From assembly GCA_027604505.1 (NCBI GenBank), contig JADIIX010000049.1, forward strand, positions 62,001 through 126,000: 64,000 bases of DNA, read 5' to 3'. The notes below the pieces were generated by a model. The model worked only from the letters and a program-made list of their open reading frames with translations. It was not told where the DNA came from and searched no databases. Shown here piece by piece: positions 36,319 to 63,881 of the stretch. How positions within the stretch are numbered: position 1 is the first letter of the stretch; each line of letters opens with the position of its first letter. Source of the DNA: Gonapodya sp. JEL0774 (lineage: Eukaryota). A program made the position numbers and the translations under genes.

Positions 36319-39300
36319 TTAAAATTTGAATTCAGTTTCATAATATGCCAATTCTCTGCTGATGCATGTTGAAATATTAATGTCCTCTACTCTTGTTGCT
36401 TTTATCACCAGCCTCGGAAGTGAAAAGGTTTCTAAAGGGGCATCACCACTGCTGAGTTTTACTGTTCTCTCGGGGTACTTCTCGTCTCCTTCTCGCCGAT
36501 ACCTTTTCCCATAAACTACGACATCTCGGAAGATGTGGTCATCCCTGCAGATAGCTCGCAAAACGTCATCGTCAGCAGCCTCATCCTGCGAGCTCAAAGC
36601 AGCGCTGTAAATATCCTCCTGATCCTCAGCAATACTGTAGAAGTCAACATTTCGGTAGCTTATTTCACCTTTCCTCGAAGTGACCTCTTGCAGCGAAGTT
36701 TCTAGAATCGCACCAGTGCGTAACAACTCAAATACCGCTCGGGGACCTTCGAAATATACGTGTGCTTCCCCCGTTCCATCTTCCACCACTGCCCTTGCCT
36801 CAGCAGAAAAGTGGCCGCGATCTGAACCACAGGAGTTGCCGCATCGTTGATCGCGATACCGAGTGCCACACACATCACATTGGAACCGCAGAGTAACTTC
36901 AGCAAGTGCGATAATTCTGCATGATACTTGTAAAGTGGTGCGGAGATGCAGAAGCTCAACCTCTAAGAGTTCACAGAGACAAAATCGTGGGGCTCGGGAT
37001 AATGATGCGATGTCCAGTTCATTTGGTAGTCTGTTCCGCACGGAAAACCCAGCGCCATCAGTGGAGCTGACATTCCCACATACCTCCACCGCCGTGCACG
37101 CGAGGCTGGCACAGTATATCGATCGACCACCCTTTGATGCCTTCCTGGCGCTATTCCACACCCGGATAATGGCACCCGGAATCACCCCGAGGGGCCAGAC
37201 GTGAACACTGAGATCCCAGTAAAAATCTACCACGTCGATTCCTACAAGATCTCGGATCTTCAAATACAACACCTTTCCGACTCGTCCAGTTCCGACTGCG
37301 AATTCGTGGAATAGCTCAACGGGGCGAGCAATGTTAGGTTTTGAAGTTCCGGACTCCAGGTTTCGCATCCACCAAACACCACCACCCTCTCTATCCCGAA
37401 ACTCTTTGGACACAATAACACCCTCAAATGACGCGAGACGTTCCAGATAGCCATGCTGTGTGCCTTTGAACGAATGTGCGTCGTTCGAGTTAAGTACCTC
37501 GCAAACATCAGACAAATAGGGTGCGTGCGCGGAATAAACCATTTGAACTCTTGTTAGCGCTGGCGACGACGTAGACTGCGTCACAGGATCGAACACTATC
37601 CGACCAAGAAGGTCCACTTTGATTCCGGAATTGTTTTTTGAGGAGTCGCAAGTTGGGCCAGCTGCGATTGAACCATTTGCACTTGAGGCATTGTCCATCC
37701 ACAACCTATCTTCTTGTGTCATTATAGACATCGTATCATCCGACATGTCCGGTAAATTTTGACCACCGTCCTCGGGGTTAATCAGTCCACGAGATTCAAA
37801 ACCGTTCCGTGAAACGATCTCGACCCTCGATTTCTTCCCAACTTCCACAACAAACTCGCCGGTTTCCCTGAGTTGTTCCTCCATGATCACTCGATGAATG
37901 CGATAGCATCGCCCGGTCTCGAGATATGCCAGCCAAGCAACGGCGTCCCCTCGAAAAATCAAGTGAGCGAAAACCGGTGCTGAGGCGACTGGGATTCTGT
38001 CCGCCTCGTCAATCGAGCCCGTGTTCGTCGTTGAATCTTCCCGAACGATCCCTTCGCAGGAGGCTGCGAAGGTGGTCTGTCCGTCAGATAACAAATGCAG
38101 TCGAGGAGCACTCACGAACGTGAACTTCACAATGATGTCAACAAAAGTATTGGCAGGAGCATCTGACTTGCTCACGTCAGCTCCGTTTTTCGAGTCTTCA
38201 ACACATCCATCACTTTTTACTTCTGCAGACTCAAGGAGACCACCACGCTCCACCAAGCAAACCAGGTCTTCCTCTTTGCACCGCACCCACATTGTTATCA
38301 ACCCGTTCGCCACCCGCTCCACCACAAGCTCCCACTGTTCCACCATCCACAACCCGCCAATCATAGATGGGTCAAGAGAACCGTTGATAGGCACACCTTC
38401 CGATCTCTGTACTACGAGCGGAATCCTACCGGTGATGTCAGCGAGCTCAAAGTGTCCCCGAGAGGACGCTTGAATTTTCCCCCCCAACACCGCACGATCC
38501 ATCCCGACATCCGCCGGAGCCAATACGGCTAATGCATACTCTTCGCTCTCTCTCATTGCAAGCACCGCAGGGTGTCTTGACAACTCATTCAATGTAGGAA
38601 ACCGGCGAACTTCGAACCCTCTTCTGGCGGCGCAGCACTCCGAGTGGTTCAGGAATGTGGTGAAAACGTCCGCGCAAGGCACATCGACGATCTCAGCGTA
38701 TCGCCAACGGGTAGCGAGGGCAGCTAGCAAGCTCGGATGGTTGGGGTCGCCTGAGCCGTATACCAAGTTCCGGGGTATCAAGCGAATCAATCCTTTACGA
38801 CGCAGGTCCGAATGAATTATGTGCAAGTGAATTGCATCGAGTGCAGAAGACCAAGAAGCTATAGCGACCGGCACTGGGTAGGATGGTACGACAACGTGAG
38901 CTGTGTCCGATGGAGTCAGAGACGAAACAGAGCCTCCAGAAGGGTGCGGCGCCTTGACCACCACCTCGATAGTGGACCGAGAGCACGCGACAAGAATGCT
39001 CTTTCCGTCAATTGTTCTCGTGAGATGAACATTGTGACATTCCACTGAAGACCCCGCGCAGAGGTCTCGTGCCACTGCGATTCTATGGAAGTGAAGCTGG
39101 ACTTCGCCGTCGAGTAGAACGAGCGGCGTTATAAGAATATCAGATGGAATGTTAGAGACAGTGCCGGAGTAGGAGATCATCGAAGGGGTTCCGGTAGTGC
39201 AGTCGTGTGGTGGTTTTGCCCATTGGCGGACGTTGGTGGTAACATCAGACAACAAAGTGGTGGCTCTTGAATTCACATGGTTGGTCATGGCGTTCGCAGT

Positions 39301-40815
39301 TTCCGTCGTTGTCGCCACAGGAACCACTACCTCATCTCCAAGTACAGGCCACAATCTACTCTTCCCCTCTACCCACGATGCTACCATCTGTCCTCCCTGA
39401 AACTGCCTCACAGCCACTTCAGTGAAAACGTAGTCAGCACCGACGCGGATCAGGTCGTGGAGGGGATATAAGCGAGGTAACTTGAAGACCACAAAGGTTG
39501 AAAAGTAAGTCGGGGCGAGGAACGGAGTCGGGGGATGGACCGAGGTTGCCGGAGAAGTAGCATTGAAGGGATACCCGAATGATTCCAGGGGTTCCTTGCC
39601 CTTTTCTTTGTCCTTTTCAGCGGCCCTCGCGCCTTGCCCGTCGCCTGGTCCCACTTGCGGGTCCACCCCGACGTCGCCGGCTGTCCTCTCACCATATCTT
39701 ACTTCTACAACAAAAGTCTCGCCACCTGACCGGCCCTGTATCACGGGAGATTTTGCCACTACGATTCCCCGGAAAGTAAAAGACTTGATGCGGGGTATCG
39801 TTGTGCGTGTGAAAGTAACGACTGAGGGATCGATGGGTGGGGAAGGTTGGTGGGCGGTGGGATGGGAAATGGGGGAGGGACCTGCTGGGAGGGAGTTGGG
39901 ATTGGGTGAGAAAGTTCCCCATTGTAGAAAGTAACGTATGAACGTACCCATTACAGTTCCAGTTCCTTCGAGGTACCTGTTAACTGGCCTCAACGCAGCG
40001 AGCAGAGTCGGCGCGTGGAGATGCGGGAAGCGTTGGCGGTCGTCGATCCATCCCTTGGCCAGACTCTTGTCGGAACGGGGGTCAAAATCGTCCGAGGTGA
40101 AAGCGTACCTGGGGATTTTGTTGAGTGGATGGTGGCGTGGCAGGGGGATGGGGAGGTCGGTGATGAAGAGAGTACCCATGTGGAGGGAGGTTGAATTAGA
40201 GCGGCGTGCCTTAGGGAACGTGTCCGATGCATTTGAGGCACCGTTGGGCTGGTATGTGTATGATGTGATGCAGAGAGGAATACCGGACCAAGGGGATAAG
40301 GTAAAGTGAGGGAGAGTTTGTGAATTGTGGGTGACGGTGGTAGGAGTGTCTTGGGAACTCGTATTCTGTAATATCCGCACAGAAGATGTTGTGGTTGATG
40401 GCGTGAGCTCGGAGTGATATGGTAGAGGTGCGTCCACGGGCGACGTGTAACCAGAGAGGAGGATGTCGAGCGGGGGTGGATAGACCGCATTCGATGAGGA
40501 AGGGTGGTGGAATTGGGACCGTTGGGGAGCAAAGACACAGCGCAGCGCTCCGGTTTTATCGGACACGAAGAACGAGTCAAGGTCATTCCGTGCATGCGGA
40601 GATATAGAAAGAGGCCAGCCGATGTGGAGGGTGACCGAGAGGACCGGGAGAGGGTTCGCAAAAGTTCCCTTCTCCGGCAACGAGTGCGAAGAGTGAGGGG
40701 AAGAAGCTGTGTTGCTGGTGGTGATGTTGTTGGTCCCGGCAATGAGAGACGATATGCAGATGAATTTGAAATGGACGAGGCTTGATTCCTCGATAGTGGT
40801 CGATCCATGGCTCAT
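36319..40815 (-). CDS. CTC1: CST complex subunit CTC1 (multi-OB-fold telomere/replication protein), single 1498-aa ORF
   Basis: Motifs resembling animal CTC1: VECHNVHL; LGGKIQASSRGHFELADITGRIP; WPLGVIPGAIIRVWNSARKASKGGRSIYC; and a C-terminal Zn-ribbon OB fold, FQCDVC..RC..C..AEARAVVEDGTGEA. Confidence 0.8.
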   Translation of the reverse strand: MSHGSTTIEESSLVHFKFICISSLIAGTNNITTSNTASSPHSSHSLPEKGTFANPLPVLSVTLHIGWPLSISPHARNDLDSFFVSDKTGALRCVFAPQRSQFHHPSSSNAVYPPPLDILLSGYTSPVDAPLPYHSELTPSTTTSSVRILQNTSSQDTPTTVTHNSQTLPHFTLSPWSGIPLCITSYTYQPNGASNASDTFPKARRSNSTSLHMGTLFITDLPIPLPRHHPLNKIPRYAFTSDDFDPRSDKSLAKGWIDDRQRFPHLHAPTLLAALRPVNRYLEGTGTVMGTFIRYFLQWGTFSPNPNSLPAGPSPISHPTAHQPSPPIDPSVVTFTRTTIPRIKSFTFRGIVVAKSPVIQGRSGGETFVVEVRYGERTAGDVGVDPQVGPGDGQGARAAEKDKEKGKEPLESFGYPFNATSPATSVHPPTPFLAPTYFSTFVVFKLPRLYPLHDLIRVGADYVFTEVAVRQFQGGQMVASWVEGKSRLWPVLGDEVVVPVATTTETANAMTNHVNSRATTLLSDVTTNVRQWAKPPHDCTTGTPSMISYSGTVSNIPSDILITPLVLLDGEVQLHFHRIAVARDLCAGSSVECHNVHLTRTIDGKSILVACSRSTIEVVVKAPHPSGGSVSSLTPSDTAHVVVPSYPVPVAIASWSSALDAIHLHIIHSDLRRKGLIRLIPRNLVYGSGDPNHPSLLAALATRWRYAEIVDVPCADVFTTFLNHSECCAARRGFEVRRFPTLNELSRHPAVLAMRESEEYALAVLAPADVGMDRAVLGGKIQASSRGHFELADITGRIPLVVQRSEGVPINGSLDPSMIGGLWMVEQWELVVERVANGLITMWVRCKEEDLVCLVERGGLLESAEVKSDGCVEDSKNGADVSKSDAPANTFVDIIVKFTFVSAPRLHLLSDGQTTFAASCEGIVREDSTTNTGSIDEADRIPVASAPVFAHLIFRGDAVAWLAYLETGRCYRIHRVIMEEQLRETGEFVVEVGKKSRVEIVSRNGFESRGLINPEDGGQNLPDMSDDTMSIMTQEDRLWMDNASSANGSIAAGPTCDSSKNNSGIKVDLLGRIVFDPVTQSTSSPALTRVQMVYSAHAPYLSDVCEVLNSNDAHSFKGTQHGYLERLASFEGVIVSKEFRDREGGGVWWMRNLESGTSKPNIARPVELFHEFAVGTGRVGKVLYLKIRDLVGIDVVDFYWDLSVHVWPLGVIPGAIIRVWNSARKASKGGRSIYCASLACTAVEVCGNVSSTDGAGFSVRNRLPNELDIASLSRAPRFCLCELLEVELLHLRTTLQVSCRIIALAEVTLRFQCDVCGTRYRDQRCGNSCGSDRGHFSAEARAVVEDGTGEAHVYFEGPRAVFELLRTGAILETSLQEVTSRKGEISYRNVDFYSIAEDQEDIYSAALSSQDEAADDDVLRAICRDDHIFRDVVVYGKRYRREGDEKYPERTVKLSSGDAPLETFSLPRLVIKATRVEDINISTCISRELAYYETEFKF

Positions 40816-41583
40816 CAGGGTCGCCAGCGACAGCCAATCATCCCTTCCCGGGTTCCCGGTTGCGACTTCTCAAACGAGAAGCAATCCAGCAACTTCGGGT
40901 GAATAGTTTCCGAGTTCTAGACTCGTGGCGGCGAAGATTCGGTTGGGACTAGCGCTTCAAAGGCCGGCAGCTGGAGGTTATCAAGATTTTGAATTGATTC
41001 GAAATCTTGCACGGATTCGCTCACGTGTTCCGCTTTCAGACGCTTTCTGAACTACACTGGCACTTCACCCTCTCGTGTTCTTCCTCGTATGTAGGTTCGT
41101 TCTTTTGCCCAAACCTGTGAGGATTCGCATTGGGTGCTTGATCCAGTAACACAAGAAACTTCCGCACATTTTCACTTTGAATCAGGAGTTATCGACGAAG
41201 ATCCCCAATGTTTTCTCCTCTGATTGCCGCTTTTTTTATGAAGCACTAAGACTTTTTGTTAGCGTCATGGGGATAGTGCGATTTTGAAGTTGGATCCCCG
41301 TAATCAAACTATCTGGGACCTCGCGATTTAAGAAATCTTTTTTTTTTCCAATACTGCACGTCTATTCAATACGCCCATTTTGAGCCGAATGGTGGGGCAA
41401 GTTGTCATGGAGGTCGGGGATGTTCCTGCGGAGCGGAACAACTCTGAGACCTGGACACAGGGTTCACGATCACAGTGTGATAAGGATTGATCCACCACAC
41501 AGATATATATGAATGTATGTCCACACAGCGCACAGTTTTCTTGACCAAGACTCCCTACAGGGCAGAGTTTCATCTCCATCATC

Positions 41584-44500
41584 ATGCCCTCGGATATCAG
41601 AAGCCATTCTTTCCATCGCGTGGTCATCGTCGGTCTGGGCATGGTCGGCCTCAAGATGTGCGAGTCGCTCATCTCCATCGACGAACTGGCCGGCGCTTCT
41701 TCCTCGGAGTCATTCCAAATCACCGCTTTCTCGGAAGAACCCAATGCAGCTTACAATCGCATGCTACTCACCTCCTATTTTGAACATGGCTCCGTCGAAG
41801 CGCTGACGATGAAACCTGCCAGCTGGTTTGTGGGAAAGGGCATTAAAGTGGTCAAAAGGAGAGTCACAAAGATTGATAGAGCAAGGAAGGTGGTCACTGA
41901 CACTGCTGGAGCGGAAACAGAAGTATGTGTGGAGGAGCGGTGACTCGATGACGCAAATCTCTCACCACTCGCATCTAATCGTCCAGTACGATACACTTAT
42001 AATTGCAACCGGATCTAACTCCTTTGTCCCTCCCATCAAAAATGTTGAAGCCCCCGGTGTCTTCGTCTACCGAACCATCGAGGACCTTGACAACATGATT
42101 GCCTACGCCAAATCCTGCAAGCAAGCGGCTGTTCTTGGCGGAGGTTGGCTCATTGAATATTCACAAAAACTGAATCTCGTTTTGTTATAACCCGAGAACA
42201 TCTACCGATAGGCCTTCTCGGTCTTGAAGCCGCCGCCGCCCTGATGCACCTCAATCTCCAAACTACCGTCGTTGAGCGAAATCCGCACGCGCTTGCCCGC
42301 CAACTTGATGCCGAAGGTGCTAGCGTGATGATGCAAGAGCTTGACCGATTAGGACTCAACGTGGCAGTGCGCAAGGACACCAAACAGATTCTGACAAACG
42401 CAGAGGGACGCGTAAGAGGACTTGAGTTCGTGCACAAGCAGGGAACTCACAGCGGAGACGATGTTTTAGAATGTCAGATGGTTGTGGTGAGCGTCGGTAT
42501 CGCATCGAGGGATGAGTTGAGCAAGGAGTGCGGGTTGGAGGTATGTTAGCAACACATGATGACAGCACTCAGCGAATCGGGAGATCTCATGCCACGAAAC
42601 TCCGACATATCCAATAGACTCATGCAAGGGGTGGTACCGTTACAGATGACGAGCTCCGCACTTCGGACCCCTCCATCTTCGCCGTCGGAGAGGCTGTTTC
42701 TCATCGGGGAATTGTATACGGGCTTGGTGAGTAATACTGGCGTTTGTGTCCATACCATCAAAATCTTACTACAATCTCATGCAACATCCTCTTCTTCCAG
42801 TTCAACCTGGCTATGAAATGGCCCAAGTGGTTGCATCTGTGCTTGCAAAGGAACGTCACATGCGCTGCCACGCTGGGTCCGCCCTCTCGGCACCGGCCAC
42901 CAAGCGATTCTTGGGGAGTGACATGTCTACAAAACTCAAACTCGCGGGTGTGCACGTGGCGAGCTTCGGAGACTACTTTGCGGACAGGGACGGTTACAAG
43001 GGGGTGCCCGCGGCGGATGTCGTAACGGCGGTAGCCAAGGATCCGTTCGGTAAGCCTTGAATGGCAATCGATTTTGGGCGTTGGATGGGGAGAGTGGTTT
43101 TCTTACGGTCATGTTCTTCGCACAGGGTGCTCCTACAAAAAGCTCCTCTTCTCCAAGGATGGCAAACAGTTGTACGGTGGAATCGTACGTTTTTCTCTCT
43201 AAGTAATCTATTGTTGCTCTTCAGTACATCGACTGACTCCGTTATCTGATCGTCCAAAGCTCGTGGGCGATGCCACAACGGAGTACACCAAGCTACACAC
43301 TTTGGCTCGCAGTGCAGCACCGCTCAAAGTCTCACCCTCGGAGCTACTAGGTCGCAAGAAGGGTGGTGATACAGAAGAGGAGGATGTGAGGTTTTCTGAT
43401 CCGACCCTGGGGGCCATTTTCTGCCCCTCTCTAACTTCACACATGCAACATGTACACCTCCCAGGATCTCCCCGACGAAGCTCAAATTTGCTCTTGTAAC
43501 AACGTCACCAAGAAAGCTCTCGTTGAGGCTGTTAAGGCCGGTAACAAGACCCTCCCCGCACTCAAATCCTGCACGCAGGCCGGTTTGGGCTGCGGCGGAT
43601 GTGTTCCCGCGGTGACATCGATCATGAACGCGGAGATAAAGAAAATGGGAGGAACAGTGAAAAACTCTTTATGCGAGCACTTTGACTTTTCGAGGAAGGA
43701 GGTTGGTCTTGTTGTGCACAAAATATTGACGTGGTCTGATCAATGGTTCTGGTACGTTTCAGCTATTCGAGATCGTTAAAATAACAAAAACGAAGACATT
43801 TTGGGACCTTTTGAAGACTCATGGCCGAGGTAACGGTTGTGAGGTCAGTCAATTCTCAAGTGTTCGTTTATGAACTTGCTCGTGCTCACTCTATTGTTCT
43901 CGGCCTGACAAGGTCTGCAAACCAGCCGTCGCCTCAATTCTCGCCTCTCTTCACAACGAAAATGTCATTGCTAAGGCGCACATGCCGCTACAAGACACCA
44001 ACGATAGATTCCTCGCCAACATTCAGCGAGGTGGTTCGTTTTCGGTTGTGCCTAGGATCGCCGGGGGCGAGATCACTCCGGAGGGTCTCATTGCTATCGG
44101 GCAGGTTGCCAAAGAGTTTGGACTCTACACCAAAATAACTGGTGGACAGAGGATCGGTGGGTTGTCAACGGGGAGGGCTTCCGTGTTTTGCGGAAACCTG
44201 ACCACTTCCGGTTCTTCAAGACATGTTTGGTGCGCAAAAGGAGGACCTCCCGACAATCTGGGAAAAACTCATTGCAGCTGGCTTCGAATCTGGCCACGCG
44301 TACGGAAAATCCCTGCGTACCGTCAAATCATGTGTAGGCTCCTCGTGGTGTCGGTATGGTATGAGGGACTCTGCTCGTTTTGCGATAGAGGTGGAGAACC
44401 GATATAAGGGAGTTCGGTCACCTCACAAGCTAAAGGGCGGTGTGAGTGGGTGTGTGCGAGAGTGTGCTGAGGCTCAAAGCAAGGACTTCGGCCTTATTGC

Positions 44501-45740
44501 TACGGAGAAGGGATGGAATGTGTAGGTTATCAGATGCTTCCGTTGCCTCCATGAAAGTGGTTTTCTGAATGTACTCCACTATTTCATTTTATTTGTGCAG
44601 CTACGTAGGCGGCAACGGCGGATCCACACCGAAACACGCTCTCCTTCTGGCATCGGAAGTGCCCGAAGAACTCGTTATCAAATATCTCGATCGGTACCTC
44701 ATGTACTATATTGCTACAGCCGACAAGCTCACCCGGACTGCGCGGTGGATCGAGAAGCTAGAAGGGGGAATTAAGCACTTGCAAGATGTCGTGATTCACG
44801 ACAGCCTGGGGATTGCAGTGGAGCTGGAGGAGCAGATGGCGCACCTCGTCAGCACATACAAAGAGTGAGTCGTACTTTGAGGGGAACCGAAGGAAGCGCA
44901 GAGCATTATGTTTGCTCACTGATCGGCCGTGACATCTTCCAGCGAATGGGCGGAAGTCGTTAACAACCCGGAACTTCGAAGGCAGTTTAAGCAATTTGTG
45001 AACTCGGAAGAGACGCAGGAGAGCATCGTCATGCTCAAGAAGCGTGGTCAGATCGAGCCGGCACCGTGGCCCAAGAATGGAACCGGTGCGGGACCGTCAA
45101 AGGAAGACACGGAGGCGCTCATCCGTGAGAGTGGTGACCAATTGGAATGGGTGGATGTCGGTAAGGTGGTGAGTTCCGTGACTCACTGAGACCAAACTAA
45201 GTTTGCACCTTATGAGCACGTCGGCTTGATTGTAGGCCGATTTCGTTGACGATACAGGTCGCACGGTGAAGTACGGTGACACTCAACTCGCAGTATTCCG
45301 GACATTGTCCGGCGACGGATCCATTCAGTGGTATGCTTCTCAAAATGTGAGTTTCGTGAATATGTGAAGATCTATTCAAGGACTATTGTGACACAAGCAC
45401 AATCGACTCGTAGATGTGTCCCCACAAACGGTCCCTCGTTTTGTCCCAGGGTCTCCTCGGCGACGCCAATGGTGTTCCCAAGGTTGCTTGTCCCTTCCAC
45501 AAAAAGACATTCGCACTCACTACTGGCGAAGGTATCGACGATCCCAGCTTCTCGATCAGCACCTTCGAAGTTCGCATTGCGGGCGGGGACAGGATCGAAG
45601 TGAAGCTACCCAGCATCAAAACCCTGGATCGGGCATTAGGTACGAGTGCATGGAAAGTTGGCAAAGAGAGACGGCGAGCGAAAAAGATTGAGGGAGGGTG
45701 CGGTGGAGCATGCGGAGGAGGGGAGGAGCTAGCGTGGTGA
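41584..45740 (+). CDS. niiA: Assimilatory NAD(P)H nitrite reductase (NirB-type with fused Rieske NirD-like domain), multi-exon
   Basis: FAD site VVIVGLGMVG, AYNR, IIATGS, VLGGGLLGLEAA, MSTKLKL, 2Fe-2S motifs ICSCNNV..CGGC and GCEVCKP, LQDTNDRFLANIQR, siroheme/4Fe-4S motifs KSCVGSSWCRYG and GCVRECAEAQ, Rieske CPHK..CPFHKK. Stop TGA at 45738-45740. Confidence 0.97.
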
Positions 45741-48170: not shown

Positions 48171-50078
48171 TCATAGCTTCACCACTTGCTCTTGCTGATA
48201 CCCCATCTTCTTCAGAACTCCGCCCAACGGCCCGGGGGAATCGTCGGGGGCGCGGGGACCTGCCAGGTGCGCCACCATGCTGGATAGGCAGGGAGAAGGA
48301 CGAAATCGCGTGAGGAAGAAGGGTTTCACAGGGACGAGAAGGATGGATTACAGGGCGGGGGGAACAATCGACTGATTCAGTGCGACGTACCGTTCCGGCC
48401 CACATACAAGCACCACACCATTTTTGCCTGTACCTGGTGGTGGTAGCCCAGCCTTCTTCACCATCGCCTCGTCCACTCTGCCTACCAAACCGCGCCACTG
48501 TGCCTTGCCGGCATCATCCACCGTACTGTCCACCGTGTATGTGACTCTGAACCTATTGGGATACATGGCTGCCAGCGAGTCGAGTTCGTTTTTGTAGAGA
48601 ATTGATTCGGGGGAGCGGGATGCGTACAGGAGTGTGACTTTGGGTTGGACGTTGTATAGGGAGGAAGTCGGAGGAGAGGTTGACAAGAGATGAGGGAGGA
48701 GTTGGATGAGCGGTGTGATGCCAGTGCCGGCGGCAATCTGGAAGAGGAATCGGCGAGGAACAGTGAGGTGGTGCGTAGCGAGTGGGGTGAGTTGTGTTGA
48801 GGACAAATTAGTCCGCCCGTCAAATTAGTGCGCCCGTCTCAGCTTCAGTGGTCTCAAAATCCCTCTCGCCCGCACTGAGTCGTGTATCCAATACTCACAA
48901 ATCCAATCTCTTTCTGACTCCCAACTTCCCACCCTACGAACAGCCCCCTCATGTCGACCTTGGCTCCCACTTTCCTCCCAACCAGCCACGGTGTCACACC
49001 TCCTTCGTCATACCTTTTGACGACCAAGGCAAATTCGGTCGGTGTGATGAAGAGCGGGGTGTAGAAGCGGAGTAGTTGCGCAGACGGCTCGCGGAGGTGG
49101 AGGTGGATCAACGCGAGGGGGGGAAGGTCACGAGGAGAAGGCTGCAGGAAGGGGTGGGTGGGTGAAGGAGTGGAGGGCCTGGATGGGGTTATTGGGGACA
49201 TGGAAGAGCAGTGAGGTAGGTCCTGTTGCTCTCGGGTGGTTGAGCGTGGAAAGGGAATTGCGTTCGTTCCTCTCTGTGTTTCACGGACTCTCTCACACCC
49301 ACCTGGAACTTTCTTGACTACCCGTCACTGACGGAAACGCTGTTGGTGCGAGACCCCCCACGAGGGTCTTTGCTGTTGCGCTCTTTTCCTTTTCGGCAAG
49401 GAGGTCCGCCTCCCTCGAGACGGGGATCTCTCTCCTAAACTTGAGTTTGTATACATGTGGAGCGATAAGTTGCTTTTCGATCAACTCAAAGGCCGTGAAT
49501 TTGCGTGTGTCGAATACAGGTGGTGGTTCGTAGACCGTCAAGTAGTGATGTACTTGGTACGCGAGGAGCGCTGCAGATGCTATGAGGCCAATAACAAGTG
49601 CCGGGGTCGAAGACTTGTCTATGGTCGGAAATGTATGTCGGGCTTGGGGTGGTGCAAAATTTGACGGTGGTGGCAGTGAGAAGGAATTGTAATCGTGGTT
49701 ACCGTTCTGGCGTGGAAAAGAAAACGGTGGGAGCGGCGACGGGGGGTCAGTCCGGTGCAGACTCAGTGGTCCCACAAGCGGGGGAAGGTGCGCAGCCTGT
49801 TCGCTCCGGGAAGGTCGCGGTGGAGAAGATGTCGGGGAATCGTGTTCGTTGGGGGTATGATGTGGACCGGACAAGGACGAAAAAGAACGCGAAGAATACA
49901 ACCATCGCGGATGCATTTGTTGCAAAGTCCACGCAGGATGTGTCGATCGCTTCTCTCGCCCTCCTTGTAGCGGTGTCCGAGGGCCAACCACGATATTCCC
50001 ACTTGCAAATCCTCTCGCTGAAGATATCGAGTCCGTTCCTCGGAAAATTCCCCGTCTAATCCTTGAAACTGCTGCCAT
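48171..50078 (-). CDS. NADH-cytochrome b5 reductase-like flavoprotein (MCR1/CYC2-like) with basic presequence and TM anchor
   Basis: Arg/Ser-rich N-terminus, TM segment ALVIGLIASAALLAY, FTAFELIEK, RFYTP, VKRYDEGGVT, IAAGTGITPLIQ, TLLYASR, VLVCGP. Last exon MVAHLAGPRAPDDSPGPLGGVLKKMGYQQEQVVKL-stop. Confidence 0.88.
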
Positions 50079-53258: not shown

Positions 53259-55471
<2,213 letters not shown>

Positions 55472-59209: not shown

Positions 59210-61696
59210 TCACAAGATGTACCCGATCGCGAATTTGTCCTTCATCGCCTTCGCAGCGGACCCGTGAATGGCGTGGAAGTCCTCCGACGCATCCTGTCCA
59301 GCGACGATCATGATGGATTTCAGGCCTGGAAGGATGACGACAGAGGTGTTCAGTCGTTGAGGGGCGGGGACACTTTGGATCCACCAAAGAACCAAACACT
59401 GGCAAAACACTCACCACCAGGATGTCGCTTCAGAAACTTCGTGCAATCCAACACCATCCCATCGATCACAATCCAGCAGTCTGTTTCGGACTTGTGCGAC
59501 GCCACGTCGGCCATAGTCATGGGGTTCAGACCTTCCTTGCGTTTTGCGGGTGTGTTGACCAGGACGGAAGGTTTGGTCGCAGCGTCGGCTGCGGCTTTGA
59601 GTCGGGGCATCCAGCCGGCTTCTTTAGATTCACCAATGTTGGTTGGGTGCTGCCATATGTAAGTTGAGGTGGTCGGGTTATGGAATAGTTTCACTCGGTA
59701 CCACTGACAAGGTTACAACGAGTGGTTGCCAGTGAGCTCTGAGAACCTACGGCAATTGACATAGCGAGATTGGCAACTCCAACTCACATTATTCGACATC
59801 ATGCCAAGTAAGTTCCACGTTTGATCGCGCGGTTGTGTGTTTTGGCTCGCATCCCAGCATCTGACCAGCACCTCCGCAACCTGAACAGGCGTACCATCTG
59901 TGCTCTGAGTGATTGTTGTGTCCACGAGTACATCTATTTCTGCTTCCCATAAAAACCAGCACCAGAATTTCGACCCATGACGCGGCGCTCCATCATTCGA
60001 CCCGTGGCGCAGCGAAGGTGCGAGAATCCACGTCTGGCCGTCATCCACAGACAACTCCACCCGTATAATCCGCCGTCCGCCACCAGTGTAAGCGTATCCT
60101 TTGACAGGTAACCGTATCGTGAGAGGATTCGGGGCTGATGTTTCGATGGCGACGACTCTGTGGTGTGCAGGTGAGGTGATGACCGAGTTGATGTTACGTT
60201 CGTTGATAATGAATTCGGGTCGGCGCCACCAGTTGACTTTCTTCATCCCCGAACCGTTGGGGTCAGGTGTGAGTGTGGTGGAGAGGGCGACGGCGGCGGA
60301 GGTGACGTTGGGTGGGAGTACGCGGTTGTCTTCGAAGTGATAAGTTGAGTCGGATTCCTGCGGGTTATCACACAAGGTTTTGGGTGAGAGCTTGATACAA
60401 TCAATCGCGAAGTTCCTTTGAGGTACTCACAGAGTCGCTGACGGTGATTTTAGAGAGCCATTTGACCATTCTTCCGCCAATCCAGCCCGGAATGATTACA
60501 CGAAGTGGGTAGCCGTGATCTGGTGGAAGACGCTGTTGGAGCGTCAGTGTCTCATGCACGATCTTATGGGGATGCACAATCAAACAGGGTAGACGTACCT
60601 CTCCATTCATCTCATACGCAAGTAAGATATCTGATGTGTGATCAAGTGCCATCTCTAAAGGTACAGTGGTGCCGTAGTGACCTTTGGGCAGGTTGTCGGA
60701 CCCCGAGAAATTCACGTATCGCGGAACCGCGATCGTGCCATCTTCGCGTACGCCGGACTTTGGACCACCACAAAGGTTCAGAATGTGCGAGAGAGGAACA
60801 CCTGTCCAGACGGCGGTAGAAACAGCTGCAGGGCCCCAGCTTTTCCAAATTATATGCATGCAAGTGTTGAAGAATCATAGCAGGTGACGGTGACAACAGC
60901 GGGAGGACCACACCTGAAGCCTTGTGAGTTTTTTGTGACATTTTGTTCATGCCTTCGGTTACCCGCGCATGTCAAAGTGACTTGGAAGGTTGCTCTGGGC
61001 ATGCGAGCAATCTCATCCATGGAGAACGTACGAGGTTTCCGGACGAGGCTGTGTGTGTGCGAAAAGGAGCAATAAAAGCTGATAAGATCACTCATGTATG
61101 CAGTAAAGTGTGCAAAGAGAATTTACCCGTCCAGCGATACATTGAAGTCTGCCCATTCAAGATTGGGTACCGGGCCATGGTTGCGCACGTAGTGCAAGGA
61201 ATTCGGCGTCAGACCTTTACTCTTCTCGGCAGCAGCCATTAGCGTGGTGATAGGTGCCTGGAGATGGTCAGCACGAAAATTAGATGCACTCTTACCAGAC
61301 GACCCCGTTTCGAACTCACCTCTGAATTGAAAGGATGGCGACCAGTCAAGCGGATCATACTAGGATGTCGAGGAACCCAATTATCCTAGAGGTACAAAGA
61401 AAACATCGAAGATTGTCCGTTTCGAATGGGGGATAGCGACTCACTGGTGTGTCCACATCTTTCGTGTCGACACCGCCTTCCCATTGACCAAATCCCTCTG
61501 GCAGTTCAATGACTTTCTCTCCACCTTTTCCTTGATCACTCTTCTGACTGAGGGATATTGATGAGAGCGTTGACACCAAAGTAACTCCAGCGATCCCAGA
61601 TATTGCACCAAGCGCGGCGGCGACCGCCCACAAAGGTTGCGCCGTCTGAGACGAATCGACCAAGGATAGCGATGCTATGAGCGGGGCAATCGACAT
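59210..61696 (-). CDS. Nitrate reductase-type Moco + cytochrome b5 protein lacking the FAD/NAD(P)H domain, with N-terminal hydrophobic segment
   Basis: TPDNWVPRHPSMIRLTGRHPFNSE, HYVRNHG, Mo-ligand LTCAGNRRHEQN, WGPAAVSTAVW, PDHGYPLRVIIPGWIGGRMVKWL, YHFEDNRVLP, NINSVI, KGYAYTGGGR, WCW, NTQP..WNLLGMM, hinge QHPT..GWM, b5 DCWIV..HPGG..FHAIH..IGYIL-TGA. Confidence 0.9.
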
Positions 61697-62117
61697 TATG
61701 CGTAAATCTGGACTGTGAGAATTCTTGTCTGAGCATTTAAGAGAAATGATCGGTGGTGGGGTTTGATGGCATCAACTCGACCGAGTTGTTCCTCGTTTAG
61801 GAACATTTCCAACACCCACGACTCACAGCGACAAACAGAAATCGTGGACCCATTCCCAATATCCGGTAGTAAGGAATTGGCTTTCTGCGCTCGTCATCGC
61901 CTTTGCGAGCGAATTAAAAGACCAGAAACCAATTACTCGGAACTTCAATGTTCCTGCCGGCGAGGCGGTCCACAACTCAAGGCACCTCTCCCTAAATCTG
62001 GATTCCCCAAGAGCCATGACTCAGATTGCAGAAAGTTGACTAAGCTTGTCCTTCGTGCGGCCAGAACTTCACATTCAGTCGCGTGCGGTGATAATATATT
62101 ACATTGTTGAATATATG

Positions 62118-63530
62118 TCATGTTCGGCGTTCTATTTGGAGTTTTGCTGTCCCCAAGTGGGATGCTCGCTCCACAGCTAAATCCGCACTATCGCGGTTCT
62201 CCACGAAATGTCCTTGCAGCATTGCCGTGCTCACATGGCGATCCGCAAGGCTTTGCACGAACCTCTCACACAGCTTTTCATCTGCGTTCGCGAAGAATCT
62301 CCGAAACATTCCACGTATTTGATGTGGAGTCGCCCACCCGAATTCGTGCCGCACGTCCACACGGCCAGGTCGGATTAGGGCCGGATCTAATTGGGATGCG
62401 TGGTTGGTGGTCATGAAAATAATGCGCTCTTCCGAGGAAGCAACACCGTCGAGAGCATTTAGCAGGCCAGAAAAAGTGACCATGGAGGAGAAGCTATCAC
62501 CGCATCGGTTGGTTTCAAACCAATACTGTCAACAACTAAAATCACATATATTCCTTCAACCGTCTACTCACCCCTGCTTGTCCGTCTGCTCTCGCTTTGA
62601 AAACGCCGCATCAATATCCTCGAGCAATATTAAGCTGCGATGCGGCGCATGGCTAAGGAGGTGGTTCAGGCGGTCGTCAGTAAGGCCGCGTTCTGCGAGG
62701 TTGAGGACACAGATATTGTACTCTAGGTGGCCAGCCAGAGCCAGAATGAACGATGTTTTACCAGAGCCAGGAACACCGTACAGTAGGTACCCCCTTCGAT
62801 AGGGAATACCTTGAGGAACGTGAGAAGAGATTTACGGTCCTGATGTTAGAAAACGGCTGTGTGACGCACCTCTGTCGTAGTACCATCTGCCATTGTCAAT
62901 AAATCCTCTGACGTCATTCAATATCTTTTCCGTGACTCCATCGTCCAAAACCACGGAATCGAGTGGCCGTCTTCGTCTCGGCTGGCCGAATGGCCTCCAA
63001 TCAGGCCCATAGCTCGAGTAAATCACCGTTTTACCCTCCTCCTTCTCCAACGCTAATACCCTTGATTCCTCGAGAAGCTCAGCGAATAACTTCCTGTCCC
63101 GTGTCAGCGTCGTGAGCGTCACAGTCTCCCATGGAGCAGCGTTCGTTAGGTCCAACATCTGCCGCTCCCGCGTTCTCTCCACCATGAACCATGCGCCCCG
63201 ATAACGAAAAAAGTGAGTACCTGGGCCTGCAACGAGCCCAAACTCAGTCTTGGTACTTCCGTTATCGTGCCGGGTGTGCTGAGTTTGGACGCTCAAAGTA
63301 GGGTTCCATGCTGAAGCGGTAGGCGATGAAGTCATCCAATTCAGCACCCACGGGTATGCTTTGTCTTTGGATGGAATTTCCAAGGTAACCAAGAGCCGCC
63401 GACGGGCGATGCTAGCTCCCTGAACGAATCCTTTGCGAAGTACGGCGAGCGCGGTGCCCACGCCGAAAAGGCCGAATCCGGCAGTGAAGTAAGGGTTCCC
63501 TTCGAAAGCTGCAAAAATTGTTTCGCTCAT
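62118..63530 (-). CDS. BCS1: Mitochondrial AAA chaperone BCS1
   Basis: [112 protein letters not shown]. Confidence 0.97.
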
Positions 63531-63881
63531 GGGCTGGGCGATGGAGCAAAGCGCCGATGGGTCGTGACGGGACGGTGGCGACAGAGAATTTGCTTTTCTC
63601 GGCAGGTGAAGATGTGAAGACCTACAATGACCTCTGGCCCGCCCCATCAAACAGAAGTCACACATCATTCAGTCTATTTGTGGTTGTGAAACAAAACTAA
63701 TCAACAAACGGTAGTACAACAGCGTGTCTCGTTTTTCAAGGTATCTGCCCTGCAGTTCAACAAATGGGCGGTGTCAAAACTCTTTACACTCCAAACGCGC
63801 CAATCAACCCCGTTCCCCAACTATTGCGCCGCCTGCGCCTCCATCGCTGGCTCGAAGCGTTCACTGGATGAGGACCGTGAA

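What the first reader, a model, noticed from the sequence alone, without database searches (positions are those of the whole stretch)
61553..61696. N-terminal membrane-anchor-like segment on the nitrate reductase
Seen: the protein begins MSIAPLIASLSLVDSSQTAQP-LWAVAAALGAISGIAGVTLVSTLSSISL, an uncharged stretch of more than 25 residues rich in small residues. It is followed by Lys residues and then the first NR motif. Known: assimilatory NRs are soluble cytosolic enzymes without an N-terminal anchor. Inference: gain of a signal-anchor together with loss of the diaphorase domain suggests coupling to a membrane electron donor in the ER or mitochondrion.
Basis: partly seen in the sequence, partly recalled or inferred. 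Interest (0 to 1): 0.75.

Follow-up and report, generated by a model that had tools for sequence, protein, structure and literature searches.

The report
Membrane-anchored, reductase-less fungal nitrate reductase
A Gonapodya (early-diverging aquatic fungus) gene encodes a nitrate-reductase-type enzyme that lacks the usual built-in NAD(P)H/FAD domain and begins with a conserved, uncharged hydrophobic stretch that is predicted to tether it to a membrane, where it would likely be fed electrons by a separate membrane-bound reductase.

Summary
On the minus strand, codons 1-48 (61696-61553) of a nine-exon gene read MSIAPLIASLSLVDSSQTAQPLWAVAAALGAISGIAGVTLVSTLSSISL. This stretch has no K or R and one D, and is followed by K52, K57 and K61 and then the conserved NR motif DTPDNWVPR...HPFN.

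The protein matches the NCBI model for Gonapodya sp. JEL0774. It has Oxidored_molyb, Mo-co_dimer and Cyt-b5 domains and stops right after the haem domain, with no FAD/NAD domain.

The hydrophobic core (residues 22-44) reaches Kyte-Doolittle 1.92. G. prolifera keeps it: 27 of 27 positions are uncharged small/hydrophobic, though only 14 are identical. It is missing from the other evaluable NR homologues: 3 of 93 reach KD 1.6, namely the two Gonapodya proteins and one merged gene model.

The best reading is an uncleaved, moderately hydrophobic N-terminal signal-anchor with the catalytic body in the cytosol and the haem domain reduced in trans. This is inferred; no dedicated predictor, RNA data or localisation data were available.

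Loss of the diaphorase domain is older than the anchor. It is shared with chytrid relatives whose NR is fused to nitrite reductase.

A standalone NiR gene and a TM-bearing cytochrome b5 reductase-like gene lie in the same window. Verdict: a new variant of a known enzyme, moderately to highly interesting.

The parts
61445..61696 (-). Exon 1 (84 codons): start ATG at 61696-61694, N-terminal hydrophobic region, basic flank, start of the conserved NR motif (..DTKDVDTP)
   Evidence: Same start in P0001 and P0002. BLASTP to P0002: 52% identity, E 7e-26. No Pfam family.
61658..61696 (-). Residues 1-13, MSIAPLIASLSLV: short first hydrophobic stretch, too short to span a bilayer; 11 of 13 identical in G. 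prolifera
61553..61633 (-). Residues 22-48, LWAVAAALGAISGIAGVTLVSTLSSIS: predicted transmembrane helix (core 22-44 = 61565-61633), with G30xxxG34xxG37 kept in both species
   Evidence: KD19 1.92. The recalled Hessa scale gives a sum of +1.1 to +1.6 kcal/mol. The recalled WW scale gives a mean of 0.10-0.12.. In G. prolifera, 27 of 27 positions are uncharged small/hydrophobic and 14 of 27 are identical. AF2 of the orthologue predicts helices 22-33 and 37-48 at low pLDDT.
61508..61552 (-). Residues 49-63, LSQKSDQGKGGEKVI: C-terminal flank with 3 Lys and 2 acidic residues (G. prolifera: 4 basic, 2 acidic)
61320..61385 (-). Exon 2 (DNWVPRHPSMIRLTGRHPFNSE)
61127..61257 (-). Exon 3 (includes the HYVRNHG Arg equivalent to P. 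angusta Arg89)
60914..61048 (-). Exon 4: Oxidored_molyb segment with the Mo-ligand Cys motif TLTCAGNRR; the NCBI model P0001 skips it
60599..60839 (-). Exon 5, Oxidored_molyb
60431..60532 (-). Exon 6, Oxidored_molyb
59788..60357 (-). Exon 7, Mo-co dimerisation domain (includes DNRVLP Asn and WNLLGMM Met, the NR-type substrate-pocket residues)
59415..59703 (-). Exon 8, hinge and first half of the cytochrome b5 domain (..HPGG)
59210..59325 (-). Exon 9, second half of the cytochrome b5 domain and the stop codon (59212-59210); no FAD/NAD domain follows
41584..45740 (+). Standalone NAD(P)H nitrite reductase gene (Pyr_redox_2, Fer2_BFD, NIR_SIR_ferr; starts MPSDIRSH..). Orthologous to the NiR half of the chytrid NR-NiR fusions. 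A possible alternative electron donor.
48174..50078 (-). Cytochrome b5 reductase-family gene (P0121 = HDU93_007420, 409 aa). Arg-rich N-terminus, hydrophobic helix near residues 62-82, RFYTP and GTGITP motifs. Candidate membrane-bound donor (inferred only).

Best explanation
The first 48 codons of this nine-exon, minus-strand Gonapodya gene encode a conserved, uncharged hydrophobic stretch that is predicted to act as an uncleaved N-terminal signal-anchor, likely leaving the molybdenum-cofactor, dimerisation and cytochrome b5 body in the cytosol at a membrane surface, where its haem domain would be reduced in trans by a membrane-bound NAD(P)H flavoprotein of the cytochrome b5 reductase kind.

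Shown by calls or sequence:
- The gene model and its start.
- The NR-type domain set and active-site residues.
- The absence of a FAD/NADH domain.
- The hydropathy and charge pattern of the N-terminus.
- Conservation of that pattern in G. prolifera and its absence from other NR homologues.
- An NiR gene and a helix-bearing b5-reductase-like gene in the same window.

Inferred:
- Membrane insertion.
- N-out/C-cytosol topology, from the net positive charge on the C-terminal side.
- The membrane. The outer mitochondrial membrane is slightly favoured over the ER, because the helix is only moderately hydrophobic and is followed by 3-4 basic residues.
- The donor.
- The electron path: NAD(P)H, then the FAD of a separate reductase, then the b5 haem, then Mo, then nitrate.
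For: (1) Start and coding status. The ATG at 61696 is the only in-frame ATG in exon 1 and follows an in-frame stop. Exon 1 carries the conserved DTP motif that continues as DNW..HPFN in exon 2. P0001 and P0002 use the same start. Only 421 nt separate it from the upstream BCS1 gene.

(2) Hydropathy. The KD19 maximum is 1.92 (G. prolifera 1.78-1.91), against at most 1.24 in the rest of either protein. The first 50 residues hold 0 K/R and 1 D. At most one charged residue in the first 50 occurs in 1 of 5000 shuffles.

(3) Conservation of character. Residues 1-50 are 29/50 identical without gaps. In residues 22-48, 14/27 are identical but 27/27 are uncharged small/hydrophobic in both species.

(4) Specificity. 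Of the 120 listed homologues, 93 have at least 19 residues before the HPFN motif. Only 3 of these reach KD19 of 1.6 or more: the two Gonapodya proteins and P0013, a gene model merged with a mitochondrial carrier. The median is -0.01.

(5) Topology and targeting rule. The N-flank has 0 basic and 1 acidic residue. The C-flank has 3 basic and 2 acidic (G. prolifera 4 and 2). Mean WW hydrophobicity is 0.07-0.12 (scale values recalled). A review states that organellar signal-anchored proteins have TMD WW values below 0.4 plus at least 3 basic residues in the C-flank, and lists Arabidopsis Cbr1 as such a protein (PMC4010795, passages).

(6) Need for a donor in trans. The only domains are Oxidored_molyb, Mo-co_dimer and Cyt-b5. 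The stop comes right after b5.

(7) NR-type chemistry. The best solved match is P. angusta NR 2bih (E 1.3e-78), ahead of sulfite oxidases (1.9e-66). The equivalents of Arg89, Cys139, Arg144, Asn272 and Met427 are present (residue roles recalled).

(8) Candidate donor. P0121 at 50078-48174 has NAD_binding_1 and a weak FAD_binding_6 match. Its best solved match is NADH-cytochrome b5 reductase 1 (7rom, 9e-20). It has its own hydrophobic helix (KD19 1.75), which is kept in G. prolifera.

(9) Precedent. Human mARC sits in the mitochondrial membrane with its catalytic domain facing the cytosol, and is fed by cytochrome b5 and its reductase (PMC6321594, passages).

(10) AF2 of the orthologue predicts helices at 22-33 and 37-48.
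Against: No dedicated TM, signal or targeting predictor could be run.

On the recalled Hessa scale the best segment sums to +1.1 to +1.7 kcal/mol. That is marginal for translocon-mediated insertion.

KD19 of 1.92 or more arises somewhere in 537 of 5000 shuffles of this Ala/Val/Leu-rich protein, and in the first 84 residues in 67 of 5000.

Only two species carry the segment. The Cladochytrium model starts at an internal Met on a 3.5-kb contig, so it cannot be judged.

AF2 confidence over residues 1-60 is low (10-residue block means 39-61), and the alignment has no depth there.

Identical positions in the helix do not cluster on one face more than chance does (1700 of 10000 random placements reach the observed value).

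The C-flank also carries two acidic residues.

The b5-reductase-like gene is separated from the NR gene by several unrelated genes. In G. prolifera its orthologue sits on a contig of a different size (929 kb against 234 kb), so the linkage is probably not conserved.

The closest relatives have a fused NiR, which points to the NiR flavin module as the ancestral donor.
Confidence: 0.5

Rival explanations
1. The segment is a real membrane anchor, but the electron donor is not a membrane b5 reductase. The standalone NAD(P)H nitrite reductase (41584-45740), or another soluble flavoprotein, would reduce the b5 domain in trans, as the fused NiR presumably does in chytrid relatives. The anchor would then serve only for localisation, for example near nitrate import or to channel nitrite.
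For: The nearest relatives outside the Gonapodya/Cladochytrium group are NR-NiR fusions of 1540-1675 aa with no FAD_binding_6/NAD_binding_1 domain. These group with the Gonapodya clade (SH-aLRT 82, inside a 97% clade of FAD-less forms). NiR is in the same window and is up to 83% identical to the NiR part of a fusion over one segment. The ichthyosporean chimeric NR, which carries only the first two NiR domains, is reported as physiologically active (PMC6400420, abstract and passages).
Against: NiR here begins MPSDIRSH.. with no anchor or docking extension that I could see. NiR and the NR gene are 13.5 kb apart with unrelated genes between them. Nothing here tests an NR-NiR interaction.
Confidence: 0.17
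2. The N-terminus is a cleaved or import-type targeting signal that places the whole enzyme inside a compartment. One form would be a signal peptide (residues 1-13 plus a polar stretch) for the ER lumen. Another would be a stop-transfer signal for the mitochondrial intermembrane space, as in animal sulfite oxidase.
For: Residues 1-13 are hydrophobic and nearly invariant (11 of 13 identical), and are followed by a polar stretch, D-S-S-Q-T-A-Q-P. Relatives in the sulfite oxidase family are organellar (PMC6321594 passages). Other FAD-less NR-like proteins carry PTS1-like ends, so organellar sorting of this enzyme type does occur.
Against: The first 50 residues have no Arg or Lys, so it is not a matrix-type presequence. 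A second, longer hydrophobic segment follows and would stop transfer, leaving the body in the cytosol. The charge balance favours a cytosolic C-terminal side. From general knowledge, Moco insertion is cytosolic, and no SO-family enzyme is known in the secretory lumen.
Confidence: 0.1
3. The segment is not in a membrane. It is a lineage-specific Ala/Gly/Ser/Val-rich low-complexity tail of a soluble enzyme, replacing the variable N-terminal extension of other NRs. It might contribute to self-association.
For: The hydrophobicity is only moderate (recalled WW about 0.1; recalled Hessa sum positive). Shuffles of this protein's composition reach the same KD fairly often (537 of 5000 anywhere). phmmer of exon 1 against 1.84 billion representatives finds only a compositional match to a repeat protein. 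AF2 confidence is low.
Against: Across 48 residues in two species there is no K or R and a single acidic residue (D14 in both), although only 29 of the first 50 residues are identical. This argues for selection on hydrophobic character. A solvent-exposed 23-residue apolar helix on a soluble enzyme would be unusual. 90 of 93 homologues have nothing like it.
Confidence: 0.15
4. Gene-model artefact: the real protein starts elsewhere, through an unrecognised 5' exon or an internal start, and the hydrophobic codons are 5' UTR or intron.
For: No RNA evidence was available. Both public models of this gene family have errors: P0001 skips exon 4 and P0002 retains intron 1. All three reading frames are open over 61553-61696. 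Use of common codons is lower in codons 1-50 (14 of 50) than in the rest (277 of 583).
Against: The alignment with G. prolifera is gap-free and in frame from Met1, with conservative replacements. The conserved DTP.DNW motif forces a start inside exon 1, where Met1 is the only ATG. The ATG has A at -3. Only 421 nt lie upstream before the next gene.
Confidence: 0.06

Closest known systems
Canonical eukaryotic assimilatory nitrate reductase (EUKNR; e.g. Pichia angusta NR, PDB 2bih; Arabidopsis NIA1)
   Same: The first three domains come in the same order (Oxidored_molyb, Mo-co_dimer, Cyt-b5). It has the CAGNRR Mo-ligand cysteine, NR-type pocket residues and the HPGG haem motif. It is 39-49% identical to these proteins over exon 7, and the best solved match is NR.
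   Different: It has no FAD_binding_6/NAD_binding_1 (diaphorase) domain, and it has an N-terminal hydrophobic helix that 90 of 93 evaluable homologues lack.
Chimeric NR of ichthyosporeans (CS-pNR, PLoS Genet 2019, PMC6400420) and the chytrid NR-NiR fusion proteins found here (P0004, P0006, P0007, P0008, P0026)
   Same: An NR-type N-terminal three-domain module without the canonical diaphorase domain. The chytrid fusions are the nearest clade.
   Different: In those proteins NiR domains are fused behind b5 and the N-termini are short and polar. Here the protein ends after b5, NiR is a separate gene, and a hydrophobic N-terminus is added.
mARC1/2 with cytochrome b5 and NADH-cytochrome b5 reductase (mitochondrial outer membrane three-component system)
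   Same: It would work in the same way (inferred): a Moco enzyme without its own flavin, held at a membrane by an N-terminal anchor with the catalytic domain facing the cytosol, and supplied through b5 by a membrane-bound b5 reductase (PMC6321594 passages).
   Different: The Moco fold differs (SO/NR family, not MOSC; no MOSC hit). The b5 is fused to the enzyme, not a separate tail-anchored protein. The substrate pocket is NR-type.
Membrane-bound enzymes with a fused cytochrome b5 domain reduced in trans by Cbr1/Ncp1-type reductases (e.g. yeast Ole1, Scs7; recalled, not checked here)
   Same: Same logic: a fused b5 domain on a membrane-held enzyme is reduced by a separate membrane flavoprotein.
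   Different: Those are di-iron lipid-modifying enzymes with polytopic membrane domains. This is a soluble-type molybdoenzyme on a single anchor.
Plasma-membrane-bound nitrate reductase activity of plants (PM-NR)
   Same: A eukaryotic nitrate-reducing activity associated with a membrane. The term occurs in 13 papers of the library (search listing only).
   Different: As far as I recall it is known as a biochemical activity, with no TM-bearing NR gene assigned to it. No paper was read for this point.
Animal sulfite oxidase (mitochondrial intermembrane space)
   Same: Same Moco and dimerisation fold plus a b5 domain, and sorted to an organelle by its N-terminus.
   Different: In SO the b5 domain is N-terminal, the pocket is SO-type (Tyr/Arg, recalled) and the presequence is basic. 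Here b5 is C-terminal, the pocket is Asn/Met, and the first 50 residues have no basic residue.

Membership tests
Eukaryotic nitrate reductase (EUKNR) | Oxidored_molyb domain with the Mo-ligand cysteine (CAGNRR) | tested here: met
   Pfam PF00174 hits on exons 4-6 (E 4e-09 to 1.7e-14). TLTCAGNRR lies in exon 4 of my model. The NCBI model P0001 omits this exon.
Eukaryotic nitrate reductase (EUKNR) | Mo-co dimerisation domain | tested here: met
   PF03404, E 3.8e-33, on exon 7
Eukaryotic nitrate reductase (EUKNR) | Cytochrome b5 haem domain behind the dimerisation domain | tested here: met
   PF00173 on exons 8 and 9. In P0001 the hit covers residues 517-587, E 4.4e-21. HPGG and the FHAIHG histidines are present.
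Eukaryotic nitrate reductase (EUKNR) | C-terminal FAD_binding_6 + NAD_binding_1 (cytochrome b5 reductase) domain | tested here: not met
   No such Pfam hit in any exon or in P0001/P0002. The stop comes right after b5. tblastn with the canonical NR P0013 finds FAD/NAD similarity only at 48456-48737, which is a separate gene.
Eukaryotic nitrate reductase (EUKNR) | NR-type substrate-pocket residues (P. angusta Arg89, Arg144, Asn272, Met427; roles recalled from the 2bih structure paper) | tested here: met
   The alignment of P0002 to 2bih shows the R of VRNHG, the second R of CAGNRR, the N of DNRVLP and the M of WNLLGM at the equivalent positions. The window protein has the same motifs.
Eukaryotic nitrate reductase (EUKNR) | Nitrate-reducing activity | not testable with these tools
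   Needs an enzyme assay
Signal-anchored (N-terminal single-TMD, uncleaved) membrane proteins, organellar outer-membrane type | One hydrophobic helix of about 20 residues near the N-terminus | tested here: inconclusive
   KD19 is 1.92 and a 23-27-residue uncharged stretch is present. AF2 predicts helices at low confidence. No dedicated TM predictor was available, and the recalled Hessa sum is positive.
Signal-anchored (N-terminal single-TMD, uncleaved) membrane proteins, organellar outer-membrane type | Moderate TMD hydrophobicity (WW below 0.4, rule quoted in PMC4010795) | tested here: met
   0.07-0.12 for residues 22-44 in both species. The scale values were recalled from memory and the TMD borders were chosen by eye.
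Signal-anchored (N-terminal single-TMD, uncleaved) membrane proteins, organellar outer-membrane type | C-terminal positively charged flank with at least 3 basic residues | tested here: inconclusive
   There are 3 Lys (JEL0774) and 4 Lys/Arg (G. prolifera) in residues 49-63, but each flank also has 2 acidic residues. The review says the definition of this flank is not settled.
Signal-anchored (N-terminal single-TMD, uncleaved) membrane proteins, organellar outer-membrane type | Demonstrated membrane integration and topology | not testable with these tools
   Needs fractionation, carbonate extraction and protease protection
Chimeric NR / NR-NiR fusion (CS-pNR type) | NiR domains (Pyr_redox_2, Fer2_BFD, and others) fused behind the b5 domain | tested here: not met
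   The protein ends after b5. NiR is a separate plus-strand gene at 41584-45740 with its own start.
Chimeric NR / NR-NiR fusion (CS-pNR type) | Phylogenetic affinity of the Moco-dimer region | tested here: met
   A quick ML tree of 33 rows puts the Gonapodya+Cladochytrium clade (100) next to the chytrid fusion clade (99). The join has SH-aLRT 82 and lies inside a 97% clade of 12 FAD-less rows. Creolimax CS-pNR falls outside this clade on a long branch.
mARC (MOSC-domain amidoxime reducing component) | MOSC / MOSC_N domains | tested here: not met
   No MOSC family among the Pfam hits. The resemblance is in mode of working only.
Sulfite oxidase | SO-type pocket (Tyr and Arg in place of NR Asn272 and Met427; recalled), with SO as the best match | tested here: not met
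   Asn and Met are present. NR 2bih scores 268 bits, against at most 228 bits for SO chains.

The most novel reading that the evidence does not exclude
Gonapodya has turned the soluble assimilatory nitrate reductase into a membrane-tethered, flavin-less terminal reductase that draws electrons from an organellar membrane redox chain (an outer-mitochondrial or ER NADH-cytochrome b5 reductase). This would be the first gene-encoded membrane-bound eukaryotic NR. In a fungus that lives on submerged decaying fruit, it could serve as an NADH sink for nitrate reduction under low oxygen and not only for assimilation.
Probability: 0.2. Interest if true: 0.8.

Novelty: new variant of a known kind. Interest (0 to 1): 0.62.

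Why it matters
Eukaryotic nitrate reductase is the textbook case of a self-contained soluble redox chain: NAD(P)H, FAD, haem, Mo.

This gene would show that the chain can be taken apart. The flavin domain is gone, and the rest is predicted to be pinned to a membrane, which is how mARC and the b5-fused desaturases work.

If confirmed, it would give three things:
- A gene for a membrane-bound eukaryotic nitrate reductase, so far discussed mainly as a biochemical activity.
- A natural experiment on which flavoproteins can feed the NR haem domain.
- Together with the chytrid NR-NiR fusions and the PTS1-ending forms noted here, evidence that early-diverging fungi have rewired both the electron supply and the location of nitrate reduction several times.

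It also matters for annotation. Both public models of this gene are wrong in detail, and these proteins are auto-named 'Nitrate reductase [NADPH]' although they have no NADPH-binding domain.

Tried and rejected
- RNA or DNA read evidence for the 5' end: none was listed, and the cap is 1, so the start and splicing rest on sequence logic and orthology only.
- Whole-genome search of the window's own assembly: no genome is held. I therefore could not ask whether a canonical NR, NRT2 or other b5 reductases exist elsewhere. Among the 120 homologues listed, only one protein per Gonapodya species appears.
- phmmer of exon 1 against 1.84 billion representatives: 1 hit at E 5e-07, a bacterial repeat protein rich in S/T/A/G. 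I rejected it as compositional. The orthologue did not appear in that table, and I cannot say why.
- ESM Atlas look-alikes of exon 1: no usable hit.
- First word-based search with the NAD-binding ORF of the b5-reductase-like gene: only the protein itself. The repeat with the whole protein found the G. prolifera orthologue and a few distant relatives.
- Conserved helical face (GxxxG-type interface): the identical positions are not clustered more than chance (1700 of 10000), so I make no claim.
- GC3 and codon usage of codons 1-50 against the rest: GC3 is 0.57 against 0.58, and commonest-codon use is 14 of 50 against 277 of 583. This is not decisive.
- Tandem repeats in 61300-62200: none.
- Matrix-type mitochondrial presequence: rejected, because residues 1-50 contain no K or R.
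- Nitrate-assimilation cluster as an argument for the b5-reductase-like gene: weakened. Six or so unrelated genes lie between NiR, that gene and the NR gene, no NRT2-like ORF of at least 110 aa was found in the window, and the G. prolifera orthologues sit on contigs of different length.
- Klein et al. 2012 on the mARC1 anchor: the paper is not held, so I used a review instead.
- Complex prediction was not used. A pass for a b5 domain with a b5 reductase would follow from family likeness and would not single out this gene.


Full report
**What is at the coordinates.** The finding lies on the minus strand. Reading 61696 downwards gives MSIAPLIASLSLVDSSQTAQPLWAVAAALGAISGIAGVTLVSTLSSISLSQKSDQGKGGEK...

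I built a nine-exon model from the sequence and checked it in a script.
- Exons: 61696-61445, 61385-61320, 61257-61127, 61048-60914, 60839-60599, 60532-60431, 60357-59788, 59703-59415 and 59325-59210.
- There are eight GT..AG introns of 59-89 nt.
- The product is 633 residues.

Pfam on the single exons finds three families and nothing else at E up to 0.01, apart from a sub-threshold WW_TCERG1 match:
- Oxidored_molyb on exons 4-6.
- Mo-co_dimer on exon 7, E 3.8e-33.
- Cyt-b5 on exons 8-9.

Exon 1 matches no family.

**Whose gene it is.** A word-based search with exon 7 returned 199 proteins at E up to 0.001, of which the best 120 were listed.
- P0001 is a 100% match: a 588-aa hypothetical protein of Gonapodya sp. 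JEL0774.
- P0002 is a 69% match: 645 aa, from G. prolifera JEL478.
- P0003 is a 58% match: 598 aa, from Cladochytrium tenue.

P0001 has the same start as my model but skips exon 4, which carries the Mo-ligand motif TLTCAGNRR. P0002 has the same start but reads intron 1 through as a 20-residue insert. P0003 starts at the internal Met of MIRLTG on a 3.5-kb contig, so its N-terminus cannot be judged.

**Is the start right?**
- An in-frame stop lies at 61772-61774, and Met1 is the only ATG of exon 1 in frame.
- Exon 1 ends with DTKDVDTP, and exon 2 continues DNWVPRHPSMIRLTGRHPFNSE. This is the D.RD..TPD.W..R.P..IRLTG.HPFN motif seen at the N-terminus of relatives. Translation must therefore begin in exon 1.
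- The upstream gene on the same strand, BCS1 (Pfam BCS1_N, AAA and AAA_lid_BCS1), ends at 62118. That leaves 421 nt.
- The G. prolifera protein aligns from Met1 without a gap over the first 55 residues. Exon 1 is 52% identical, E 7e-26.
- No RNA evidence could be obtained.

**Is it hydrophobic beyond chance, and is it conserved?**
- The 19-residue Kyte-Doolittle maximum is 1.92 (residues 24-42). The 23-residue segment 22-44 averages 1.85. The rest of the protein reaches at most 1.16.
- G. prolifera gives 1.78-1.91.
- The first 50 residues hold no K or R and one D in both species.
- Among 5000 shuffles of the protein's own composition, 1 had at most one charged residue in its first 50 positions. 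67 reached KD 1.92 within the first 84 residues, and 537 reached it somewhere. The charge-free run is the stronger signal; the KD peak alone is not rare for this composition.
- Between the species 29 of 50 residues are identical. In residues 22-48 only 14 of 27 are identical, yet all 27 are uncharged small or hydrophobic in both. Selection on character, not identity, gives this pattern.
- Identical positions do not cluster on one helical face more than chance (1700 of 10000). I therefore claim no packing interface, although G30xxxG34xxG37 is kept.
- AlphaFold2 on P0002, with 64 of the 120 listed homologues as alignment, gives mean pLDDT 77.4. It predicts helices at 4-9, 22-33 and 37-48, but the block pLDDT there is only 39-61.

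**Is it unusual for the family?** Of the 120 listed homologues, 93 have an HPFN-type motif with at least 19 residues before it. The other 27 lack the motif or have a shorter N-terminus and were not scored.

Only 3 of the 93 reach KD19 of 1.6 or more. These are P0001, P0002 and P0013. P0013 is a Nowakowskiella model that merges a mitochondrial carrier (PF00153) with a canonical NR. The median is -0.01.

phmmer of exon 1 against 1.84 billion representatives gave one hit, a bacterial S/T/A/G-rich repeat protein, which I regard as compositional. The ESM Atlas gave nothing.

**What enzyme is it?**
- The best solved match of the orthologue is the Mo fragment of Pichia angusta NR (2bih, E 1.3e-78), ahead of sulfite oxidases (best 1.9e-66).
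- In that alignment the equivalents of Arg89, Cys139, Arg144, Asn272 and Met427 are kept. The numbering was derived from the chain index plus 10, and the residue roles are recalled from the structure paper. The same motifs are in the window protein. The pocket is therefore NR-type, not SO-type.
- The protein ends 37 codons after the HPGG motif (stop at 59212-59210).
- A convergent plus-strand gene follows.
- tblastn with a canonical NR finds FAD/NAD similarity only at 48456-48737, in another gene.

**Relatives change the evolutionary reading.** After the three proteins above, the next hits are chytrid proteins of 1540-1675 aa (Gaertneriomyces, two Geranomyces, Rhizophlyctis). In these the NR module is followed by a complete NAD(P)H nitrite reductase. 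There is also a 1174-aa Rhizophlyctis protein and the Creolimax chimeric NR. Their N-termini are short and polar.

I built a quick maximum-likelihood tree of the Moco-dimer region. It had 33 rows: my model plus 32 of the 120 homologues. The 32 were hand-picked as the FAD-less or fused forms I had noted plus a sample of canonical NRs. Support is SH-aLRT only.
- Gonapodya x2 + Cladochytrium: 100.
- Chytrid fusions and fragments: 99.
- The two groups joined: 82.
- With two unnamed FAD-less proteins, a clade of 12: 97.
- Creolimax falls outside on a long branch.

The canonical reductase domain was therefore lost before Gonapodya arose. The hydrophobic N-terminus is a later, lineage-specific addition. 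The 2019 paper on the ichthyosporean chimeric NR states that that architecture was restricted to two ichthyosporeans in its databases, and its main text does not mention Gonapodya (abstract and passages read).

**Context in the window** (Pfam on 136 of the 141 stop-to-stop ORFs of at least 110 aa; the 5 omitted ORFs lie within the NR gene span; plus tblastn).
- A standalone NiR gene lies at 41584-45740 (+). It starts MPSDIRSHSFHRVVIVGLGMVG.
- A cytochrome b5 reductase-family gene lies at 50078-48174 (-). It is P0121 (HDU93_007420, 409 aa).
  - Pfam: NAD_binding_1, E 2e-21, and a weak FAD_binding_6 match.
  - Best solved match: NADH-cytochrome b5 reductase 1, 7rom, E 9e-20.
  - N-terminus: Arg-rich, with 5 K/R in the first 40 residues.
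  - Hydrophobic helix: KD19 of 1.75, at residues 64-82.
- That helix and the catalytic part are kept in the G. prolifera orthologue P0124 (43% identity).
- Unrelated genes lie between NiR, this gene and the NR gene, among them a sulfatase and ORFs with no Pfam match.
- No NRT2-like ORF was seen.
- The G. prolifera orthologues sit on contigs of 929 kb and 234 kb. Linkage is therefore weak evidence.

**Mechanism.** I commit to an uncleaved N-terminal signal-anchor.

The N-flank has no basic residue. The C-flank (residues 49-63) has 3 Lys and 2 acidic residues; G. prolifera has 4 basic and 2 acidic. By the charge-difference rule (recalled), the N-terminus would cross the membrane and the large Moco-b5 body would stay in the cytosol, where Moco is inserted.

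The helix is only moderately hydrophobic.
- Mean WW is 0.07-0.12 (scale values recalled).
- The recalled Hessa sum is +1.1 to +1.7 kcal/mol.

A review states that more than 85% of ER signal-anchored proteins have WW above 0.4, and more than 89% of mitochondrial and chloroplast ones have WW below 0.4. It adds that at least 3 basic residues in the C-flank help evade the ER, and it lists Arabidopsis Cbr1 among outer-membrane signal-anchored proteins (PMC4010795, passages). That leans towards the outer mitochondrial membrane, but I hold this loosely.

Having no flavin, the haem domain must be reduced in trans. Two precedents apply. One is mARC, which is membrane-held with its catalytic domain cytosolic and is supplied by cytochrome b5 and its reductase (PMC6321594, passages). 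The other is the b5-fused ER enzymes (recalled). Both make a membrane-bound b5 reductase the most economical donor. P0121 is one candidate. The NiR flavin module is the main alternative, because of the fusions in relatives.

**Novelty and limits.**
- A library search for 'nitrate reductase' with 'Gonapodya' found 0 papers.
- 'Nitrate reductase', 'nitrite reductase', 'gene fusion' and 'chytrid' together found 1 unrelated paper.
- 'Plasma membrane-bound nitrate reductase' found 13 papers, mainly on plant physiology. I saw the listing only.

These searches cover open-access text only, and supplements were not read. I therefore rate this a new variant of a known enzyme kind.

Everything about membrane insertion, topology, compartment and donor is inferred. 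Dedicated predictors, cDNA ends, localisation and reconstitution assays are the deciding tests.

Noticed in passing
window 60914-61048 (-); P0001; P0002 residues 87-106: Both public gene models look wrong in detail. The NCBI model of this genome (P0001, 588 aa) skips exon 4, which encodes the Mo-ligand cysteine motif TLTCAGNRR. The G. prolifera model (P0002) reads intron 1 through as a 20-residue insert between DTP and DNW.
   Followed up: yes
P0009, P0010, P0020, P0095, P0112: 5 of the 120 listed NR homologues end in a PTS1-like tripeptide (SKL x3, SKI, AKI). All five are FAD-less forms that stop just after the b5 domain (Glomeromycota, an MMETSP protist, unnamed assemblies). This suggests a peroxisomal class of reductase-less NR-like enzymes. 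Their pocket residues were not checked.
   Followed up: partly
P0004, P0006, P0007, P0008 (1540-1675 aa), P0026 (1174 aa): Chytrids of the Spizellomycetales/Rhizophlyctidales have single proteins joining the NR module (Moco, dimer, b5) to a complete NAD(P)H nitrite reductase with Rieske-type C-terminus. Rhizophlyctis also has a shorter form like the ichthyosporean chimeric NR. The 2019 paper described that architecture as restricted to two ichthyosporeans, and my two library searches found no description of the chytrid fusions. Gene-model merging has not been excluded.
   Followed up: partly
window 41584-45740 (+): Standalone NAD(P)H nitrite reductase gene, 13.5 kb from the NR-like gene, with unrelated genes in between. 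No NRT2-type transporter ORF of at least 110 aa was seen in the window.
   Followed up: partly
window 48174-50078 (-), P0121 / P0124: Cytochrome b5 reductase-family gene with an Arg-rich N-terminus followed by a hydrophobic helix, a layout that recalls yeast Mcr1 (recalled). It also has a long Pro/Ser-rich insert inside the FAD-binding region. Both Gonapodya proteins end in QVVKL. Word-based searches found few relatives, so it is a divergent member.
   Followed up: partly
P0013 (Nowakowskiella sp. JEL0407, 1397 aa): This model joins a mitochondrial carrier (PF00153) to a canonical NR with FAD/NAD domains, which is probably two merged genes. It shows that some chytrids keep the canonical NR.
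   Followed up: no
window 61536-61736 (-): An upstream ATG at 61736, 40 nt before the start codon, opens a 66-codon ORF in another frame that overlaps the anchor-coding region. Its context is weak (T at -3). If the 5' UTR reaches that far, it could act as a uORF.
   Followed up: no
window 1-12800 (+), 36322-40869 (-), 53259-55300 (+), 62118-63668 (-): Other genes in the window by Pfam: a VPS13-like lipid transfer protein, a CTC1-like telomere protein in one 1516-codon ORF, a sulfatase, and the mitochondrial chaperone BCS1 immediately upstream of the NR-like gene.
   Followed up: no
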